Below, in pieces: positions 41,710-48,014 of a DNA stretch of 64,000 bases. Position 1 is the first letter of the stretch, and every line of letters begins with the position of its first letter. Location: NCBI GenBank assembly GCA_044355035.1, contig JBIKYX010000003.1, forward strand, positions 10,851 through 74,850, written 5' to 3'. Both the position numbers and the translations under genes were made by a program. The notes under the pieces were generated by a model. The model saw nothing but the letters and a program-made list of their open reading frames with translations, ran no database searches and had not been told where the DNA came from. The stretch comes from Pseudanabaena sp. (GTDB taxonomy: Bacteria > Cyanobacteriota > Cyanobacteriia > Pseudanabaenales > Pseudanabaenaceae).

Positions 41710-44700
41710 ATGTTAGAGAACGACTCGCAGCATATATCGCAGCAAAGCACTGAAAATCCAATTAACCGACCAAATCACAAAGTCAGCTCACCAAATAATC
41801 ATACGCAAGAGATTTTAGTCGGTGTTTGGTCTGATATTCTGGGGCTTGAGCAAGTTGGGATTGAAGATAATTTCTTTGATTTGGGAGGACATTCACTGCT
41901 AGTAATTCAGGTGGCTTTGCGAAGTCGTCAAGCTTTTGGCGTTGATATACCTTTGCAAGCTCTATTTGAAAGCCCGACAATTTCCAGCTTTAGCGAATTG
42001 ATTCTTGAGATTCAATCACAAAACTTGGAGCTAGTTGATCAATCGATTACTCCAAGAATAGAACACCACAGTACACCACTTTCTTTCTCTCAAGAAATTA
42101 TGTGGTTTGGAAAACAATTAAATCCAGATCGGTTAATTCATATTAATGAAGCATTCAGATTGAAAGGATATCTTGATCTATCGATTATGAAGCGATCGCT
42201 TGAGGCTATAGTTGCTCACCATGAGGTGCTACGCACTAACTTTAGGCTTGAAGATGGTAGACCGATACAGGTGCTTCAGGCGATCGCTCCATTTGATATG
42301 GAAATCATTGACCTACGAAGTCTTGCTCCCGCAGAGATGGATGCTCAGTTGCCAGTTCTACTTCAACAAAAAGCCCATGAACATTTTGATTTAGAATCAG
42401 ATTTGATGTTACGAGCAACTCTATTCCAATTAAATGATTTGGAAAATGTTTTGCTTTTAGTATTGAATTATATAGTCAGTGATAGTTGGTCTATGGGTAT
42501 ATTGAGACAGCAACTAACGCAGTTATATAACGCATTTTTGATTGGAAAGCCGAATCCTTTATCGCCATTACCGATTCAGTATGCTGATTATGTATGGTGG
42601 CAGCGAGAATGGGTGCAAAGTGGATTACTAGATCAACAAATTAATTATTGGAAAAAACAATTAGAAGGCGTAAATCCCGTTCTAAACTTGCCGATAGACC
42701 GTCCCCGCCCTGCCATTCAAAAAGATTTCGGCGCTACTCAATCCGTAATAATTTCAACTAATTTAAGTAAGGCTCTAAAACAGATTGCTCACAAAGAAGG
42801 TGTAACCTTGTTTATGGTCTTGTTAGCAGCATTTCAAATACTTCTCTATCGATATAGTCATCAAGAAGATATTACAGTTGGTTCGTTAGTAGCGGGGCGT
42901 AATCGCATTGAATTAGAGAATTTAATCGGATTATTTATTAACTTCGTAGCTTTACGCACAGATTTAGGTGGCAATCCAAATTTTAAGGAGCTTTTGCAGA
43001 GGGTTCGCGCCGTATCTCTTGAAGCCTATGCAAATTCCGATTTACCCTTCGACAAGCTATTAGAATATCTAAATTTTAGTAGATCGCTCAGTTATAAACC
43101 ACTATTCCAAGTAATGTTTATTCTCGAAAATACACCGAATCATCCCTTGGAAATGGAAGGAATGACGGGTGTATCCCAAAAAATTGATAATCTTCAGTCT
43201 GGCATGGATTTGACCTTACAGTTACAGGAATACAACGATGATATTCGTGGAACCCTTACTTATAGTACGGATCTGTTCGATCGCGAAACGATCACCAGAA
43301 TGTTAAATCATTTCCAGATTTTGCTAGAAGCGATCGCCGCAAATCCTGAACAGCCGATCGCCAATTTACCAATTTTAACCAGATCTGAACAAGAGCTATT
43401 TCTATTCCCTTATCAGAATCGAATTAGTCCAGAAATTCATGCTCCAATTCATGATCAAGAATTACTAGTTCACCAATTATTTGAGAATCAAGCACGACTT
43501 ACACCCAGTACGATCGCTGTCCAGTATATTGATCGAACATTAACTTATCAACAACTAAACGCCAAAGCTAACCAGTTAGCCCATTATCTGCGCTCCATCG
43601 GTGTTAGAGCCGATCAATTTGTGGGAATCACAGTGGAACGCAATTTAGAAATGATCGTGGGAATTATGGGGATTCTCAAAGCTGGAGCGGCATACGTTCC
43701 TCTTGATCCTGACTATCCACGCGATCGCCTAGCATATATGATCGATGATGCCAAAATCTCGATCCTATTAACCCAAAGTCAATACATATCACAATTACCC
43801 ATTTCTCAAGCAGACAATTCTCAAGTACAGATAATCTGTTTAGATACTAACTGGATAGATATTTCTACATTCAGCGAAGAAAATCCATCATCCATTAATA
43901 CCCTTGAAAATACCGCCTATCTTATCTATACTTCTGGCTCTACGGGGCAGCCAAAAGGGGTAATTATTAGCCATCAGGCGCTCAGCAGTTTTACTAAATC
44001 GGCGATCGCGGAATATAAAATAACCAGTAGCGATCGGGTATTGCAGTTTGCTTCTATCAATTTTGATGCAGCTATAGAAGAAATATATTGCAGTTTATGC
44101 ACAGGTGCTACGTTAGTATTGCGAACTGATGTCATGATTGCTGATTCTCGTAAATTCCTACAAACTTGCGGTGATTGGCAAATAACTGTACTTGATTTAC
44201 CCACTGCTTATTGGCATCAGTTAGTAGCTGATTTAGAAGCGGTTAATTCAACTAATCCAAAAACAAAGTTGTCTTTGCCAGATTCCATTAGACTAGTAAT
44301 TATCGGTGGCGAAAAAGTGCTGCCTGAAGCCGTTAGAGCTTGGCAAAAATATGTAATTAGTTCTCACAAGGAAGGTCAGCTACAGCTAGTCAATACCTAT
44401 GGACCGACGGAAGCAACAGTTGTGGCGGCGGTGTACTGGATTTCAGAAAATGCTGCTTTTAGTGGTGAAGTTCCCATTGGTCGCCCGCTCCGTCACATAG
44501 AAACCTATGTTTTAGACTCCTATTTGCAATTAGTTCCCATCGGTGTAGCAGGAGAACTACATATAGGTGGTGATAGCTTGGCAAATGGATATTTACATCG
44601 TCCTGAACTGACAGCCGCCAAATTTATTCCTAATCCTTTTAGTAGCATTGCTGAACCTTCTTCACTTAATCGCCCACATAGAAGCTTATATAAAACTGGT

Positions 44701-46260
44701 GATTTAGTTCGTTATCTGCCTGATGGCAACCTTGAATTTATCGGTCGCATTGATGACCAAGTAAAAATTCGTGGTTTTCGGATTGAGTTAGGGGAAATTG
44801 AATCCATTCTGACTCAACATCCACATATCCGTGAAGCGGCGATCGTTGTCAGAGAAGAAATCCTCAACAATAAACGCCTTGTTGCTTTTCTTGTGACATC
44901 TACAGGGTTGAAATCAGAACAGGTTCAAGAACTAGAAACAATCAAAAGTAGTGTACGTCAATTCCTGCAAGAGCGATTGCCGAATTATATGCTCCCCAGT
45001 GCTTTTGTCTTTCTAGACAGTTTACCGATTACTCCCAATGGCAAAATTGATCGTCGCATCTTGTCTAATTTAGATATTGCCAATATTCAGTCTGAATCCA
45101 ACTTTGTTCCGCCTCGTAATTACACGGAAGAGGTTTTAGCCAAGATTTGGGCTGAAGTTCTTGGCTTAGAAAGAGTGGGAATTCATGATAACTTTTTTGA
45201 ATTAGGTGGTCATTCGCTTTTGTCTGTTCGTCTAATTTTTGAGATGGAGAAAGCTCTAAACTATCATTTCCCATTAAAATCCCTATTCCAAATTGGCACG
45301 ATCGCCGAAATAGCTAAATTTATTCAAGAACAGGATTCGGAAGAATCATCAGTAGAAGATGTGCCTGCGGGCTTAAGTATTGATGATTATCGCGCCTTGC
45401 TATCTTTACGCGCTGGGATGACAGGTTCACGCATGGGTAAGCGCGGCTTAATTGTCCATATTGCGCCAGCAGTTGAATTAACATCACAACCTTTTGTCTG
45501 GGTCGGTGAAGTGAAAACAGGCAAAAGACTGAAGCTGAAACAACCTGTTTATGTAATGCCAGGGGCAAGTTTATCTTCATCCATGAATTCGTCTCAAGAT
45601 TACATTTCCGTAATTGCTAGCTTGCTGGTAGAAGAGTTACTGTCTGCGAAACCCAGCGATTCCTATTCACTCGGTGGATGGTGTTACAATGGGTTAGTGG
45701 CTATGGAAATGGCTCAACAATTACAGAAGCTTGGCAAACAAGTGGATTTACTCACATTTGTCGATGTGTCAGGGCGATCGCCGATTTATAGTCTAGTGTG
45801 CGATCTGAATTTTCACTTAGGAACTATGCGATTCCACTTGTACAATCTTAACAAATTATCATTTACAAACAAATTGAAGTACATTGTGGAACGGATTCTT
45901 TTCAAATTTAATCCGCCCAAAAGCTCTAGCTCAGCCATTAATAGATTTGATGACAAGATAGAAACGGAGCAGGTGCTTACCCTACTTTTAAAAGCTTTTA
46001 ACAAATACACGCCTAAACCTTACAATGGTAAAGTTTTAATGGTGATTGGTAGTGAACAGATTATTCATGGTCAAAGGGAAATTAAGTATTTTGATGTTTC
46101 TGGTCTATTCCCTTACAACGGATGGGAAAATTTACTAGGTGGTCAAGTATTGCTGGAAAAGATGCCATGCGATCATCTGGACTTAATGGAAAATCCTTAT
46201 TGCGAAAGAATAGGTAATACAATTGCAACTATTACCGCAGCCCCAAAAATTAGGAGATAG
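41710..46260 (+). CDS. Stand-alone NRPS: PCP-C-A-PCP-TE
   Basis: Two LGGHSLL carrier motifs; a condensation domain; A-domain motifs YTSGSTGQPKG, YGPTE, YKTGD and QVKIRGFRIELGE; a C-terminal alpha/beta-hydrolase. Confidence 0.93.
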   Translation: MLENDSQHISQQSTENPINRPNHKVSSPNNHTQEILVGVWSDILGLEQVGIEDNFFDLGGHSLLVIQVALRSRQAFGVDIPLQALFESPTISSFSELILEIQSQNLELVDQSITPRIEHHSTPLSFSQEIMWFGKQLNPDRLIHINEAFRLKGYLDLSIMKRSLEAIVAHHEVLRTNFRLEDGRPIQVLQAIAPFDMEIIDLRSLAPAEMDAQLPVLLQQKAHEHFDLESDLMLRATLFQLNDLENVLLLVLNYIVSDSWSMGILRQQLTQLYNAFLIGKPNPLSPLPIQYADYVWWQREWVQSGLLDQQINYWKKQLEGVNPVLNLPIDRPRPAIQKDFGATQSVIISTNLSKALKQIAHKEGVTLFMVLLAAFQILLYRYSHQEDITVGSLVAGRNRIELENLIGLFINFVALRTDLGGNPNFKELLQRVRAVSLEAYANSDLPFDKLLEYLNFSRSLSYKPLFQVMFILENTPNHPLEMEGMTGVSQKIDNLQSGMDLTLQLQEYNDDIRGTLTYSTDLFDRETITRMLNHFQILLEAIAANPEQPIANLPILTRSEQELFLFPYQNRISPEIHAPIHDQELLVHQLFENQARLTPSTIAVQYIDRTLTYQQLNAKANQLAHYLRSIGVRADQFVGITVERNLEMIVGIMGILKAGAAYVPLDPDYPRDRLAYMIDDAKISILLTQSQYISQLPISQADNSQVQIICLDTNWIDISTFSEENPSSINTLENTAYLIYTSGSTGQPKGVIISHQALSSFTKSAIAEYKITSSDRVLQFASINFDAAIEEIYCSLCTGATLVLRTDVMIADSRKFLQTCGDWQITVLDLPTAYWHQLVADLEAVNSTNPKTKLSLPDSIRLVIIGGEKVLPEAVRAWQKYVISSHKEGQLQLVNTYGPTEATVVAAVYWISENAAFSGEVPIGRPLRHIETYVLDSYLQLVPIGVAGELHIGGDSLANGYLHRPELTAAKFIPNPFSSIAEPSSLNRPHRSLYKTGDLVRYLPDGNLEFIGRIDDQVKIRGFRIELGEIESILTQHPHIREAAIVVREEILNNKRLVAFLVTSTGLKSEQVQELETIKSSVRQFLQERLPNYMLPSAFVFLDSLPITPNGKIDRRILSNLDIANIQSESNFVPPRNYTEEVLAKIWAEVLGLERVGIHDNFFELGGHSLLSVRLIFEMEKALNYHFPLKSLFQIGTIAEIAKFIQEQDSEESSVEDVPAGLSIDDYRALLSLRAGMTGSRMGKRGLIVHIAPAVELTSQPFVWVGEVKTGKRLKLKQPVYVMPGASLSSSMNSSQDYISVIASLLVEELLSAKPSDSYSLGGWCYNGLVAMEMAQQLQKLGKQVDLLTFVDVSGRSPIYSLVCDLNFHLGTMRFHLYNLNKLSFTNKLKYIVERILFKFNPPKSSSSAINRFDDKIETEQVLTLLLKAFNKYTPKPYNGKVLMVIGSEQIIHGQREIKYFDVSGLFPYNGWENLLGGQVLLEKMPCDHLDLMENPYCERIGNTIATITAAPKIRR

Positions 46261-46265
46261 CAGCT

Positions 46266-48014
46266 ATGTTAAAAAGTAAACCTCGCGATGTACAAGTAAT
46301 TTATATTGCTGATCAAACCTATGCCCTGCGATCGCGTAGTTGGAATCGCTTGCGGTTTGAAATTGAATATGCTTTAGAGAAAGGAACTACCGCTAATTCA
46401 TTTTTAATTCAGGGAGCTTTACAAGCAATCATTGATCCCCCTGGCGGAACTTTTACTGATATTTATTTAGATCAACTGCGACAACGCATAAATATTAGCG
46501 ATATCAGTTATGTGATCCTTGGTCATGTCAACCAAAACCGTATTGATACCTTAAAAGCTTTATTAGAAATCAATCGCCGCCTTACATTTGTCTGCACTAA
46601 CGCTGGGGCGATCGCTTTACGCGAAGGTTTGGGTGAAGGTTTGGGCGAAGGATCGGGTGAAGGCTTGGGCAAAGGTTTAGGCGATAATATCAAAATTCAA
46701 ATTGTGCGTGGCGAAGAAACCCTCGATCTTGGCAAAGGGCATATTCTTAAATTTATCCCCACCTCCACACCGCGCCATCCTGACCAGCTCTGCACCTACG
46801 ACTCGAAAACGCAGATTTTATATACAGATAAATTTTTTGGGGCGCATATCTGTGGCGATCAGGTATTTGATGAAGGCTGGAGCCAACTGCTGAGCGATCG
46901 CCGCTATTACTTTGACAGCACAATGGCAAACCAAGTCCGTCAAGTCGAATCAGCCCTTGATAAATTTGCCGATCTTGAGGTTGCTTTTTATGCCCCTGGG
47001 CATGGTCCAATGGTGCGCTATGGCTTGAATGAACTCGTAAAGCTCTATCGCCAATGGTGCGAATCACAAAAGCAGCAAAACATTTCTGTAGTTGTGATCT
47101 TTGCGTCCGCCTATGGCAACACCACCACGATCGCTAATGCACTGGCTCGAGGCATTACCAAAGCAGGCGTGGCAGTAGAGTTAATCAATTGCGAAAGTGC
47201 AGAACCTGAAGAAATTAAAGCGGCGATCGAAAAGTCTTCGGGATTCCTGATTGGTTCTCCGACTCTGGCTGGACATTTGCCAACACAGGTGCAGACGGCT
47301 TTAGGAATCATCTTGTCTACGGCAACCAAGAGTTATCAAGCAGGTGTTTTCGGCTCCTTTGGTTGGAGTGGTGAAGCTGTGGATATTATTGCGGGAAAAC
47401 TTAAGGATGCGGGATATATCCTTGCCTTTGAACCAATTCGGATCAAGTTCACGCCCACGGAAGCGACATTACAGCTTTGTGAAGAAACAGGTACAGACTT
47501 TGCCCAAGCCCTAAAACGCGCCAAAAAAGTTCGCACAACCCTGAATCCAGGCAGTACGGTTGAGCAAGCGGTCGGGCGCATTGTTGGCTCCTTATGTGTG
47601 TTAACCGTTCAGCGCGGTGAAGTATCTACAGCGATGCTAGCTTCTTGGGTATCGCAAGCCACCTTTAATCCCCCAGGGCTGACGATCGCCGTAGCCAAGG
47701 ATCGCGCCGTCGAGTCTTATTTGTTTGAAGGCGATCGCTTTGTTTTAAATATTCTCGAACAGGGCAAGCAACTCCGCAAACACTTTATGAAAAAATTTGC
47801 GCCTGGGGAAAATCGCTTTGTGGATGTCCAATCAGAACTAACTGAAGGCGGTTTGATTTTAACCGATGGTTTGGCATATTTAGAATGTCGCGTTGCTCAG
47901 CGAATGGAATGTGGTGATCACTGGATTATCTATGCGATCGCGGACAATGGGAAGTTATTGCAGTCCAACGGCTTAACCGCTATTCATCACCGCAAAACTG
48001 CCAGTAATTATTAG
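46266..48014 (+). CDS. Flavodiiron protein (Flv1/Flv2-type; beta-lactamase-like, flavodoxin and flavin reductase domains)
   Basis: Motifs RSRSWNRLRFEIEY, ASAYGNT, FGSFGWSGE and GDHW. Confidence 0.92.
   Translation: MLKSKPRDVQVIYIADQTYALRSRSWNRLRFEIEYALEKGTTANSFLIQGALQAIIDPPGGTFTDIYLDQLRQRINISDISYVILGHVNQNRIDTLKALLEINRRLTFVCTNAGAIALREGLGEGLGEGSGEGLGKGLGDNIKIQIVRGEETLDLGKGHILKFIPTSTPRHPDQLCTYDSKTQILYTDKFFGAHICGDQVFDEGWSQLLSDRRYYFDSTMANQVRQVESALDKFADLEVAFYAPGHGPMVRYGLNELVKLYRQWCESQKQQNISVVVIFASAYGNTTTIANALARGITKAGVAVELINCESAEPEEIKAAIEKSSGFLIGSPTLAGHLPTQVQTALGIILSTATKSYQAGVFGSFGWSGEAVDIIAGKLKDAGYILAFEPIRIKFTPTEATLQLCEETGTDFAQALKRAKKVRTTLNPGSTVEQAVGRIVGSLCVLTVQRGEVSTAMLASWVSQATFNPPGLTIAVAKDRAVESYLFEGDRFVLNILEQGKQLRKHFMKKFAPGENRFVDVQSELTEGGLILTDGLAYLECRVAQRMECGDHWIIYAIADNGKLLQSNGLTAIHHRKTASNY
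46623..46682 (+). repeat. In-frame 12-bp tandem repeat x5 inside the flavodiiron gene
   Basis: GAAGGTTTGGG(T/C)-type units encoding EGLG EGLG EGSG EGLG KGLG. Confidence 0.85.

What the first reader, a model, noticed from the sequence alone, without database searches (positions are those of the whole stretch)
41710..46260. Orphan PCP-C-A-PCP-TE NRPS with a His-less condensation motif and a Cys-nucleophile thioesterase
Seen: both carrier domains keep GGHS. The C-domain HHxxxDG motif reads NYIVSDS (42466-42486). The TE GxSxG reads GWCYNG (Cys at 45682-45684), with a His retained near the C-terminus (CDHLDL). By manual alignment to GrsA the A-domain code is D-A-E-D-I-G-T-V-V-K. No tailoring, PPTase, acyl-ligase or second NRPS gene is adjacent. 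The gene is HIP1-rich and has an intact frame, so it is probably long-resident. Established: the second His is normally needed for peptide-bond formation; Cys can replace Ser in some TE domains. Inference: the code resembles basic-residue (Lys/Orn/Arg) domains. Chemistry may be shifted to the Cys-TE (cyclisation, dimerisation or transacylation), with C acting as a scaffold and the N-terminal PCP loaded in trans. This could be an undescribed minimal NRPS logic.
Basis: partly seen in the sequence, partly recalled or inferred. Interest (0 to 1): 0.7.

Follow-up and report, generated by a model that had tools for sequence, protein, structure and literature searches.

The report
Truncated remnant of two-module peptide synthetase
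This cyanobacterial gene is not a new minimal peptide-synthetase design: it is a deletion-shortened copy of a two-module enzyme that close relatives keep whole, with its first module dead and its second still under purifying selection.

Summary
ORF 41710-46260 encodes PCP-C-A-PCP-TE. The C motif reads NYIVSDS, the TE nucleophile motif reads GWCYNG, and the A-domain code is DAEDIGTVVK.

The 'orphan minimal NRPS' reading does not hold. Orthologues at the same site, between an ABC-2 permease gene and a flavodiiron gene, are 2041-2088 aa A-PCP-C-A-PCP-TE enzymes. They have canonical HHIVSDGWS and the same GWCYNG.

In the window most of A1 is deleted. A 43-codon in-frame remnant of A1 (41641-41769) spans the present ATG.

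A second lineage lost the A1 C-terminal subdomain independently. It also has a spoiled C motif (HHIVGDDRS).

The Cys-Asp-His TE is ancestral. It is invariant in 17 orthologues and paralogues from the genus, and its closest solved relative is AB3403, which also has a Cys TE.

Codon models on the truncated alleles:
- PCP1 and C are relaxed, with omega 0.41 and 0.32 against 0.15 in intact alleles (p=0.013 and 0.002). Both are still below 1.
- A2 and PCP2-TE are unchanged (omega 0.17-0.18).
- No nonsense change occurs where about 26 would be expected under neutrality.

Some truncated alleles nevertheless carry IS insertions or core-motif lesions.

Most likely this is a half-dead enzyme whose C*-A(Lys-like)-PCP-TE module still functions or has only just begun to decay. 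Expression could not be tested.

The parts
41491..41567 (+). Retained ancestral intergenic region and 5' leader, shared with the intact allele and with the NRPS-free site of a sister species. It is the probable promoter region for NRPS-flv.
   Evidence: Aligns with the intact allele L109 3939-4012. Window 41533-41584 aligns with the ABC2-flv intergenic region of G036/L115. Promoter-like hexamers lie at 41510-41538; this is a consensus match only.
41587..41641 (.). AT-rich short tandem repeats at the 5' deletion junction.
   Evidence: TRF finds period 13 x 2.9 copies and period 9 x 3.0 copies. There is no detectable match to A1 codons 1-145 of the intact alleles. Copy number differs by 3 nt between truncated alleles.
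41641..41769 (+). In-frame remnant of the lost first adenylation domain (ancestral A1 residues 146-188). It contains the present start codon ATG 41710, which corresponds to an internal ancestral Val codon.
   Evidence: tblastn of the A1 domain of L002 gives 63% identity over 43 aa, E=5e-10. The next match jumps to ancestral residue 580 at 41776. blastn agrees.
41710..46260 (+). ORF of 1516 aa: PCP1 - C(inactive motif) - A2 - PCP2 - TE(Cys).
41815..42003 (+). PCP1, the carrier domain of the dead module 1. The GGHS serine motif lies at 41878-41901. Selection on it is relaxed.
   Evidence: Pfam PP-binding 36-98. Omega is 0.41 against 0.15 in intact alleles, p=0.013.
42067..43398 (+). Condensation domain with a degenerate active-site motif NYIVSDS (42466-42486; His254Tyr at 42469-42471). 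Motifs C1, C2, C4 and C5 are kept.
   Evidence: Pfam Condensation E=4e-99. Intact orthologues read HHIVSDGWS and the other truncated alleles read NHIVSDS. Omega is 0.32 against 0.15, p=0.002, and it is below 1 with p=3e-6.
43480..45054 (+). Adenylation domain A2. Core motifs A3-A10 are all intact and the code is DAEDIGTVVK (Lys/Orn-like).
   Evidence: Pfam AMP-binding and AMP-binding_C. Omega is 0.168 against 0.161 in intact alleles.
45118..45324 (+). PCP2, with its GGHS motif at 45199-45222.
45382..46257 (+). Thioesterase domain with a Cys1325-Asp1352-His1489 triad (45682-45684, 45763-45765, 46174-46176).
   Evidence: The triad residues are invariant in 17 orthologues and paralogues. AB3403 (4ZXH) is the best match by sequence and by fold (AF2 model pLDDT 79.8, pTM 0.81; Foldseek E=1.5e-12). 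Omega for PCP2+TE is 0.175.
46266..48014 (+). Flavodiiron gene starting 6 nt after the NRPS stop. It is probably co-transcribed, and it is the conserved downstream neighbour in every orthologous locus.

Best explanation
The ORF is an orthologue of a two-module NRPS, A1-PCP1-C-A2-PCP2-TE, that has lost its first module.

Shown:
- Two deletions removed A1 codons 1-145 and 189-579. They left a 43-codon in-frame A1 remnant, and translation can now start only at an internal ATG (41710).
- The C domain's catalytic motif has decayed from HHxxxDG to NHxxxDS in the allele class. In this genome it has gone further to NYxxxDS, which removes the catalytic second His.
- PCP1 and C evolve under relaxed constraint, though not zero constraint.
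- A2, PCP2 and the Cys-Asp-His TE keep every core motif and the same purifying selection as in intact alleles.
- The frame through PCP1-C is kept open.

Inferred:
- With no donor substrate loaded in cis, the C domain became catalytically dispensable.
- The protein is still made. It probably works as a single module: A2 activates a basic amino acid (Lys/Orn-like code) and loads PCP2. The ancestral Cys-TE then takes it as a thioester and releases it by hydrolysis or by intramolecular aminolysis to a lactam.
- The dead C domain serves only as the structural platform for A2, and PCP1 is vestigial.

The Cys-TE is a family trait and not an adaptation to the dead C domain.

The confidence given here (0.55) is for the whole statement, including 'still functional as a reduced module'. 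I put the origin as a truncated orthologue, taken alone, above 0.9.
For: Orthology and truncation:
- The ABC2(-)|NRPS(+)|flv(+) synteny is the same in the intact loci L001, L002, L005, L010 and L109.
- The A1 remnant and the deletion junctions are mapped.

C motif:
- All five intact lineages read HHIVSDGWS. All truncated alleles read N[HY]IV[SG]DS.
- An independent A1-defective lineage (G023/L011, L008) reads HHIVGDDRS.

Selection (ML GY94):
- Truncated clade omega: PCP1 0.407, C 0.323, A2 0.168, PCP2-TE 0.175.
- Intact clade omega: 0.147, 0.153, 0.161, 0.200.
- Likelihood-ratio tests of truncated against intact omega: C p=0.0019, PCP1 p=0.013, A2 p=0.8, PCP2-TE p=0.73.
- Tests against omega=1: C 3e-6, A2 7e-28, PCP2-TE 6e-6.
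- With synonymous changes as the clock, 8.8 nonsense changes are expected in PCP1-C and 25.7 overall. None is observed.
- The length lesions in C (a roughly 107-codon deletion and a 3-codon duplication) are both in frame.

Other:
- All A2, PCP2 and TE motifs are intact in the window.
- The TE triad is invariant down to 38% identity. AB3403, a Cys-TE, is the top hit by sequence and by fold.
- The genome has a PPTase.
- The ancestral 5' region is retained.
Against:
- The start codon is fortuitous and has no clear Shine-Dalgarno sequence.
- Several truncated alleles carry lesions that should hurt the second module: an A5 Pro-to-Leu change (P0007 group), a 6-aa deletion in the A2 core motif (P0008), and an IS30-like element inserted in the TE at two different sites (P0013/P0129 and P0134).
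- The alleles are mosaic. A2-TE of truncated alleles is 94-97% identical to the intact allele L109, while PCP1-C is only 85-89% identical (dS 0.32-0.40 against 0.12-0.15). Part of the low omega in A2-TE may therefore have been imported by recombination from functional alleles.
- The window allele carries 8 private changes at otherwise invariant sites, 3 of them in A2.
- A free amino acid released by a TE has no obvious use.
Confidence: 0.55

Rival explanations
1. The gene is a young pseudogene. It is the same truncated derivative, but no part of it functions any more. The open frame and low omega reflect short time since inactivation, recombination with intact alleles, and perhaps selection only against disturbing transcription or translation upstream of the co-transcribed flavodiiron gene.
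For: - Module 1 is dead and the catalytic His of C is lost.
- Independent disabling lesions occur in other truncated alleles, including two IS insertions in the TE, an A5 Pro-to-Leu change and an A2-motif deletion.
- The orthologue is present in only 3 of 48 species genomes of the genus. It is entirely absent from the same site in G036, so the locus is dispensable.
- The alleles are mosaic.
- This is the only C domain in the assembly.
Against: - Missense constraint in A2 and PCP2-TE equals that of intact alleles.
- Omega of C is 0.32 and not 1.
- No nonsense change is seen against 8.8 expected in the PCP1-C part. The truncated haplotypes there are distinct from known intact alleles, so import by recombination is unlikely.
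- The truncated allele class is found intact (1516-1527 aa) in at least nine distinct sequences from several sources. It occurs in backgrounds whose flanks differ by about 4%.
Confidence: 0.35
2. This is the first reader's model: a purpose-built minimal NRPS. PCP1 is loaded in trans by another enzyme, the His-less C domain is a scaffold, and bond formation, cyclisation or dimerisation is done by the Cys-TE.
For: - The PCP1 serine motif is kept in all alleles.
- Most truncated alleles keep the second, catalytic His (NHIVSDS).
- A second NRPS gene starts with an A domain 51% identical to A1 at the end of contig C127.
Against: - The architecture arose by deletion from a canonical two-module enzyme.
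- PCP1 is the most relaxed domain (omega 0.41).
- The Cys-TE predates the change and co-occurs with canonical C domains in orthologues and paralogues.
- The window allele has lost the catalytic His.
- In-frame deletion of the C core is tolerated in some alleles.
Confidence: 0.07
3. The truncation or the His-to-Tyr change is an assembly or sequencing artefact of a metagenome-derived genome.
For: The genome is a draft of 174 contigs.
Against: - The identical 1516-aa protein is recorded on 3 contigs from several sources.
- The same truncation junction is present in the independent assemblies L007, L009, L110 and L111 at 96-97% identity.
Confidence: 0.02

Closest known systems
Intact orthologues in the same genus (probably Pseudanabaena), e.g. 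P0139/L109, P0009/L001, P0010/L002, P0011/L005 and G042/L010. These are uncharacterised A-PCP-C-A-PCP-TE NRPSs.
   Same: They occupy the same chromosomal site. They are 81-84% identical overall to the window protein (P0009-P0011), and L109 is 94-97% identical at nucleotide level in A2-TE. They share the A2 code region, the GWCYNG/Asp/His TE and the downstream flavodiiron gene.
   Different: They keep A1, which has an unusual Ser in place of Asp235 and so probably takes a starter that is not an alpha-amino acid. They also keep a canonical HHIVSDGWS motif. The window copy has lost both.
AB3403 (ABBFA_003403) of Acinetobacter baumannii, PDB 4ZXH/4ZXI: a C-A-PCP-TE termination module.
   Same: Same C-A-PCP-TE layout. 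The TE nucleophile is Cys (GGWCFGG) with the Asp in the canonical position. It is the best hit for the window's TE by sequence (E=4.5e-8) and by fold (E=1.5e-12). PMC11298585 notes that it has a nucleophilic Cys with the Asp at position I.
   Different: AB3403 has no N-terminal PCP. The second Gly of GxCxG is Asn in the window protein. The product is unknown for both.
Beta-lactone and beta-lactam forming Cys-TEs: ObiF1 (obafluorin) and SulM (sulfazecin).
   Same: Cys replaces Ser as the TE nucleophile (PMC6668435, PMC11298585).
   Different: Those TEs have the triad Asp moved to a different strand (position II), and SulM has a Gln-Cys-Asn motif. Here the Asp lies 27 residues after the Cys, as in canonical TEs, and the motif is Trp-Cys-Tyr. 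Nothing therefore points to four-membered-ring chemistry.
Partly deleted NRPS/PKS clusters in non-producing cyanobacterial strains, such as mcy remnants in non-toxic Planktothrix and Microcystis (recalled from my own knowledge, not checked here).
   Same: Natural deletion and IS-mediated inactivation of an accessory NRPS locus, with intact, partial and empty states co-existing among close relatives.
   Different: Here the surviving module still shows purifying selection, and two lineages lost the same domain independently.
Non-catalytic condensation-like domains, such as the X domain of glycopeptide NRPSs (recalled from my own knowledge).
   Same: A C-fold domain without the His motif that is retained for a structural or recruiting role.
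   Different: The X domain is ancient and has a defined partner (P450s). The window's C domain lost its motif recently, and no partner is known.

Membership tests
NRPS elongation/termination module (C-A-PCP-TE) | Pfam domains Condensation, AMP-binding(+C), PP-binding and Thioesterase, in that order | tested here: met
   E-values 4e-99, 2.8e-84, 3e-31 and 4.8e-10, in the right order
NRPS elongation/termination module (C-A-PCP-TE) | Catalytic C3 motif HHxxxDG, with the second His | tested here: not met
   The motif reads NYIVSDS at residues 253-259. Orthologues read HHIVSDGWS.
NRPS elongation/termination module (C-A-PCP-TE) | A-domain core motifs A3-A10, with Asp235 and Lys517 | tested here: met
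   YTSGSTGQPKG, FDAAIEE, NTYGPTE, GELHIGGDSLANGY, YKTGD, GRIDDQVKIRGFRIELGEIE and PNGKIDR are all present.
NRPS elongation/termination module (C-A-PCP-TE) | Carrier-domain serine in GG(H/D)S and a PPTase in the genome | tested here: met
   GGHS is present in both PCPs. One PF01648 hit at 61.5 bits on contig C86.
NRPS elongation/termination module (C-A-PCP-TE) | An upstream donor module that supplies the C domain | tested here: not met
   A1 is deleted. This is the only C domain in the assembly. The only other NRPS A-domain start lies on another contig.
Orthologous group A1-PCP1-C-A2-PCP2-TE between ABC-2 and flv | Same genomic site and more than 80% identity over the shared domains | tested here: met
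Orthologous group A1-PCP1-C-A2-PCP2-TE between ABC-2 and flv | N-terminal adenylation domain A1 | tested here: not met
   Only ancestral residues 146-188 survive, at 41641-41769.
Cys-nucleophile type I thioesterase (AB3403-like) | Alpha/beta-hydrolase TE fold | tested here: met
   AF2 model pLDDT 79.8, pTM 0.81. The top Foldseek hits are the TEs of AB3403, Pks13, NocB and Vlm2.
Cys-nucleophile type I thioesterase (AB3403-like) | Cys at the nucleophile elbow, Asp about 27 residues later, and a C-terminal His | tested here: met
   Cys1325, Asp1352 and His1489 are invariant in 17 sequences.
Cys-nucleophile type I thioesterase (AB3403-like) | Strict GxCxG elbow | tested here: not met
   The motif is G-W-C-Y-N-G. 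The residue two positions after the Cys is Asn (Glu in the paralogue group GNCYEG), followed by an invariant Gly.
Beta-lactone/beta-lactam-forming Cys-TE (ObiF/SulM type) | Triad Asp relocated to position II; Gln-Cys-Asn motif (SulM) | tested here: not met
   By sequence, the Asp is at the canonical position 27 residues after the Cys, and the motif is Trp-Cys-Tyr. The criteria are taken from PMC6668435 and PMC11298585.
Lys/Orn-activating A domains | A specificity code that matches a characterised Lys/Orn code | tested here: inconclusive
   DAEDIGTVVK matches 8 of 10 positions of the Lys code DGEDHGTVVK (PMC12283262). No exact match was found in the paper library. No substrate predictor was available.

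The most novel reading that the evidence does not exclude
Loss of module 1 is not decay but a repeated, selected remodelling. Two lineages independently deleted A1 in frame and lost the C motif, yet kept C*-A(Lys-like)-PCP-TE(Cys) under purifying selection. The truncated allele is more similar between genomes (about 97%) than their flanking genes are (about 96%), as if it had spread by recombination. On this reading a single-module Cys-TE enzyme makes its own product from one basic amino acid, for example a lactam or a TE-built oligomer. That would be a natural case of an NRPS gaining a new function by losing a module.
Probability: 0.25. Interest if true: 0.55.

Novelty: new member of a known kind. 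Interest (0 to 1): 0.3.

Why it matters
The locus shows accessory NRPS turnover in one genus as a graded series at a single site:
- intact two-module gene;
- A1 C-terminal subdomain deleted;
- A1 almost wholly deleted, with the C motif lost;
- IS-disrupted;
- empty site.

It also shows that a His-less C domain next to a Cys-TE can look like new chemistry when it is the wreck of a canonical assembly line. Genome-mining pipelines that flag odd domain strings should check orthologues first.

If the surviving module really works alone, it would be a natural example of module deletion that leaves a functional enzyme, which is of some interest for NRPS engineering.

The conserved Cys-TE subfamily (GWCYNG/GNCYEG) in this genus, and the Ser235-type starter A domain of the intact enzymes, are uncharacterised and may be worth biochemical study.

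Tried and rejected
Expression and the His254Tyr call could therefore not be checked with reads.
- A scan of genome contigs with P0001 returned only distant NRPSs at 36-48% identity. It did indicate a Pseudanabaenales affinity.
- Literature look-up of the exact code DAEDIGTVVK and near variants found nothing exact.
- The first IQ-TREE batch failed on output parsing, and a second batch timed out. The batch was rerun in smaller pieces.
- Earlier notes of this scan held nothing on this gene or its relatives.
- Accelerated, relaxed evolution as the cause of the high divergence of PCP1-C from the intact allele L109: rejected. The excess is in dS (0.32-0.40), which indicates mosaic ancestry.
- The Cys-TE as beta-lactone/beta-lactam type: rejected from the position of the Asp.
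- A1 surviving elsewhere in the genome: rejected. The only A1-like match is a different NRPS start at 51% identity, at the end of contig C127.

Full report
**Observation.** ORF 41710-46260 (+) encodes 1516 aa. Pfam gives PP-binding, Condensation (120-563), AMP-binding with AMP-binding_C (591-1112), a second PP-binding and Thioesterase. NYIVSDS lies at 42466-42486, Cys1325 of GGWCYNG at 45682-45684, and His1489 in PCDHLDL. Both carrier domains read GGHS. The neighbours are an M3 oligopeptidase, an ABC-2 permease, a flavodiiron protein, phosphoglucomutase and UDP-GlcNAc 2-epimerase. HIP1 occurs 6 times in the gene, which is 1.3 per kb against 1.8 per kb in the window.

**What it is.** A protein search found near-identical proteins of 1516-1527 aa. 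It also found relatives of 81-84% identity that are about 550 aa longer. Their contigs show the same gene order: ABC-2 permease (-), NRPS (+), flavodiiron (+). One intact allele, P0139 on L109, lies in the window's full synteny (Gln synthetase, M3 peptidase, ABC-2, NRPS, flv, PGM, epimerase), and its flanks are 95-98% identical to the window. These are therefore orthologues. They are A1-PCP1-C-A2-PCP2-TE, with HHIVSDGWS in C and the same GGWCYNG and CDHLDL in the TE.

In the window, tblastn with A1 finds ancestral residues 146-188 at 41641-41769, in the ORF's frame and spanning the present ATG. The match then jumps to ancestral residue 580 at 41776. So 391 codons carrying A-domain motifs A3-A10 were removed in frame. 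The first roughly 145 codons are also gone, and short AT-rich tandem repeats now sit in their place. The ancestral intergenic region and 5' leader (41491-41567) are retained. The start codon is an internal ancestral Val codon.

**A graded series at one locus.** Across 81 genomes searched with P0009, which include the 48 species genomes of the genus, only three hold the orthologue.
- G042 has it intact.
- G023 (and contig L008) has an independent in-frame deletion of the A1 C-terminal subdomain, which removes motifs A8-A10. Its C motif reads HHIVGDDRS.
- The window's genome has the large A1 deletion.
- G036 has ABC-2 and flv directly adjacent, 241 nt apart. It shares the same 5'-leader-like sequence as window 41533-41584. 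This is either an empty site or a clean deletion.
- Some alleles of the truncated class carry further lesions: an in-frame deletion of about 107 codons that removes the C core (P0013, P0128-P0130), a 3-codon duplication in C4 (P0148), NTYGLTE in A5 (P0007 group), and a 6-aa deletion in the A2 core motif (P0008).
- Two alleles have the TE cut at different positions with the same foreign tail (P0013/P0129 and P0134). That tail is the end of a repeat found at a contig end (C50) and within C52 of the window's genome. I read it as the reverse strand of an IS30-like transposase C-terminus.
- Every other truncated allele reads NHIV[SG]DS. Only the window's reads NY. The exact window protein is on record from 3 contigs.

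**The thioesterase.** The Cys is not peculiar to this copy. All orthologues carry GGWCYNG. Paralogous NRPS termination modules in the genus carry GGWCYNG (55-60% identical) or GGNCYEG (38-40% identical), and other cyanobacteria carry GGWC[FI]GG. In an alignment of 17 sequences Cys101, Asp128 and His265 (TE numbering) are invariant. The best solved relative by sequence is AB3403 (4ZXH, GGWCFGG). The same entry is the top hit by fold for an AlphaFold model with pLDDT 79.8 and pTM 0.81. The literature describes Cys-TEs in ObiF1, which forms a beta-lactone, and in SulM, which forms a beta-lactam. In both the triad Asp is relocated. The SulM paper notes that AB3403 is the other structurally characterised Cys-TE and has its Asp in the usual position (PMC6668435, PMC11298585). 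The window's Asp lies 27 residues after the Cys, so this is the AB3403 type. There is no indication of four-membered-ring chemistry.

**Selection.** Pairwise Nei-Gojobori omega is 0.21-0.22 within the truncated class and 0.14-0.17 among intact alleles. The table gives ML GY94+F3X4 fits by domain. The truncated set is WIN, L007, L110, L111 and L009. The intact set is L109, L001, L002 and L005.

| Domain | omega, truncated | omega, intact | p, truncated vs intact | p, truncated vs omega=1 |
|---|---|---|---|---|
| PCP1 | 0.407 | 0.147 | 0.013 | 0.037 |
| C | 0.323 | 0.153 | 0.0019 | 3e-6 |
| A2 | 0.168 | 0.161 | 0.8 | 7e-28 |
| PCP2-TE | 0.175 | 0.200 | 0.73 | 6e-6 |

A1 in intact alleles has omega 0.170.

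With synonymous variants as the neutral clock, 8.8 nonsense changes are expected in PCP1-C and 25.7 overall within the truncated class. None is seen. The length lesions in C are in frame.

There is a caveat. The alleles are mosaic. Against the intact allele L109, PCP1-C has dS 0.32-0.40, but A2-rest, PCP2 and TE have dS 0.11-0.15. The window's flanks are as close to L109's as to those of other truncated alleles. Part of the constraint signal in A2-TE could therefore have been imported from functional alleles. This caveat is weaker for PCP1-C, where the truncated haplotypes form their own deep clade.

**Mechanism.** The following is shown:
- Module 1 cannot adenylate.
- The C domain lacks its catalytic His in this genome.
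- The second module and the TE are intact in sequence.

The following is inferred:
- The ORF is still translated from ATG 41710 on a transcript that also carries flv.
- A2 activates a basic amino acid. DAEDIGTVVK matches 8 of 10 positions of the Lys code DGEDHGTVVK (PMC12283262).
- PCP2 carries the amino acid to the Cys-TE, which releases it by hydrolysis or lactam formation.
- The C domain survives as the structural partner of A2, which would explain omega 0.32 rather than 1. PCP1 is vestigial.

I give about 0.55 to 'still functional in this reduced form' and about 0.35 to 'already functionless, early decay'. Independently of those odds, I put the evolutionary origin as a truncated orthologue, and the ancestral nature of the Cys-TE, at above 0.9.

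**Context of the intact enzyme.** A1 of the intact orthologues has Ser where alpha-amino-acid-activating domains have Asp235 (FSFSSSVRQ aligned to LgrA SFSFDGSALD). It also has unusual A5, A6 and A8 motifs, yet omega is 0.17. The ancestral product was therefore probably an N-acylated basic amino acid, released or cyclised by the Cys-TE. The window's genome has one PPTase and no other C domain in the assembly. Another NRPS gene starts at the very end of contig C127.

**Comparison and novelty.** This is an NRPS of a known kind in a degraded state. Cys-TEs, degenerate C domains and partly deleted cyanobacterial NRPS loci are all known. The details that are new are modest. They are the parallel loss of A1 with C-motif decay in two lineages, the persistence of purifying selection on the remaining module, and an uncharacterised Cys-TE subfamily (GWCYNG/GNCYEG) that is common in this genus.

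**Limits.** No substrate predictor or MIBiG comparison was available. The codon tests assume a single tree per partition despite recombination.

Noticed in passing
L109 4001-5700 (also L001, L002, L005, L010): The first A domain of the intact orthologues has Ser in place of the Asp235 that binds the alpha-amino group (FSFSSSVRQ). It also has atypical A5 (NVYGQTE), A6 (GELHVAVNS) and A8 (KIREMRIE) motifs, yet omega is 0.17. It probably loads a starter that is not an alpha-amino acid.
   Followed up: partly
L009 13756-13886; own genome C50:40627-40751 and C52:18039-18162: The end of a repeated element, probably IS30-like. Its reverse strand reads like a transposase C-terminus. It is inserted at a HIP1 site in the TE-coding region of some truncated alleles, at two different positions. 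The same repeat sits at a contig end in the window's genome.
   Followed up: partly
window 46621-46684 (flavodiiron gene): A 12/24-nt tandem repeat encodes (G-E/K-G-L)n inside the metallo-beta-lactamase-like domain of the flavodiiron protein. It makes this copy 582 aa against 566-570 aa in relatives, so copy number varies between strains.
   Followed up: no
own genome C127:24942-25652: A second NRPS gene starts with an A domain 51% identical to A1 of the intact orthologues and runs off the contig end. The rest of that cluster is not in the assembly.
   Followed up: partly
L115 (G036) ABC2-flv intergenic, about 1260-1500: The NRPS-free site carries a perfect GC-rich hairpin (AAAACCCAAGAGAGAGCG/CGCCACTCTCTCTTGGGTTTT) that is absent from the window. 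It could be a small palindromic element or a terminator.
   Followed up: no
L013-L030, L034 (paralogous NRPS termination modules of the genus): Two conserved Cys-TE subtypes, GGWCYNG and GGNCYEG, end many NRPS assembly lines in this genus. None of these enzymes appears to be characterised.
   Followed up: partly
window 41553-41588: The ATG annotated as the start in the intact allele P0139 survives in the window. There it opens only an 11-codon ORF in another frame, upstream of the present start.
   Followed up: no
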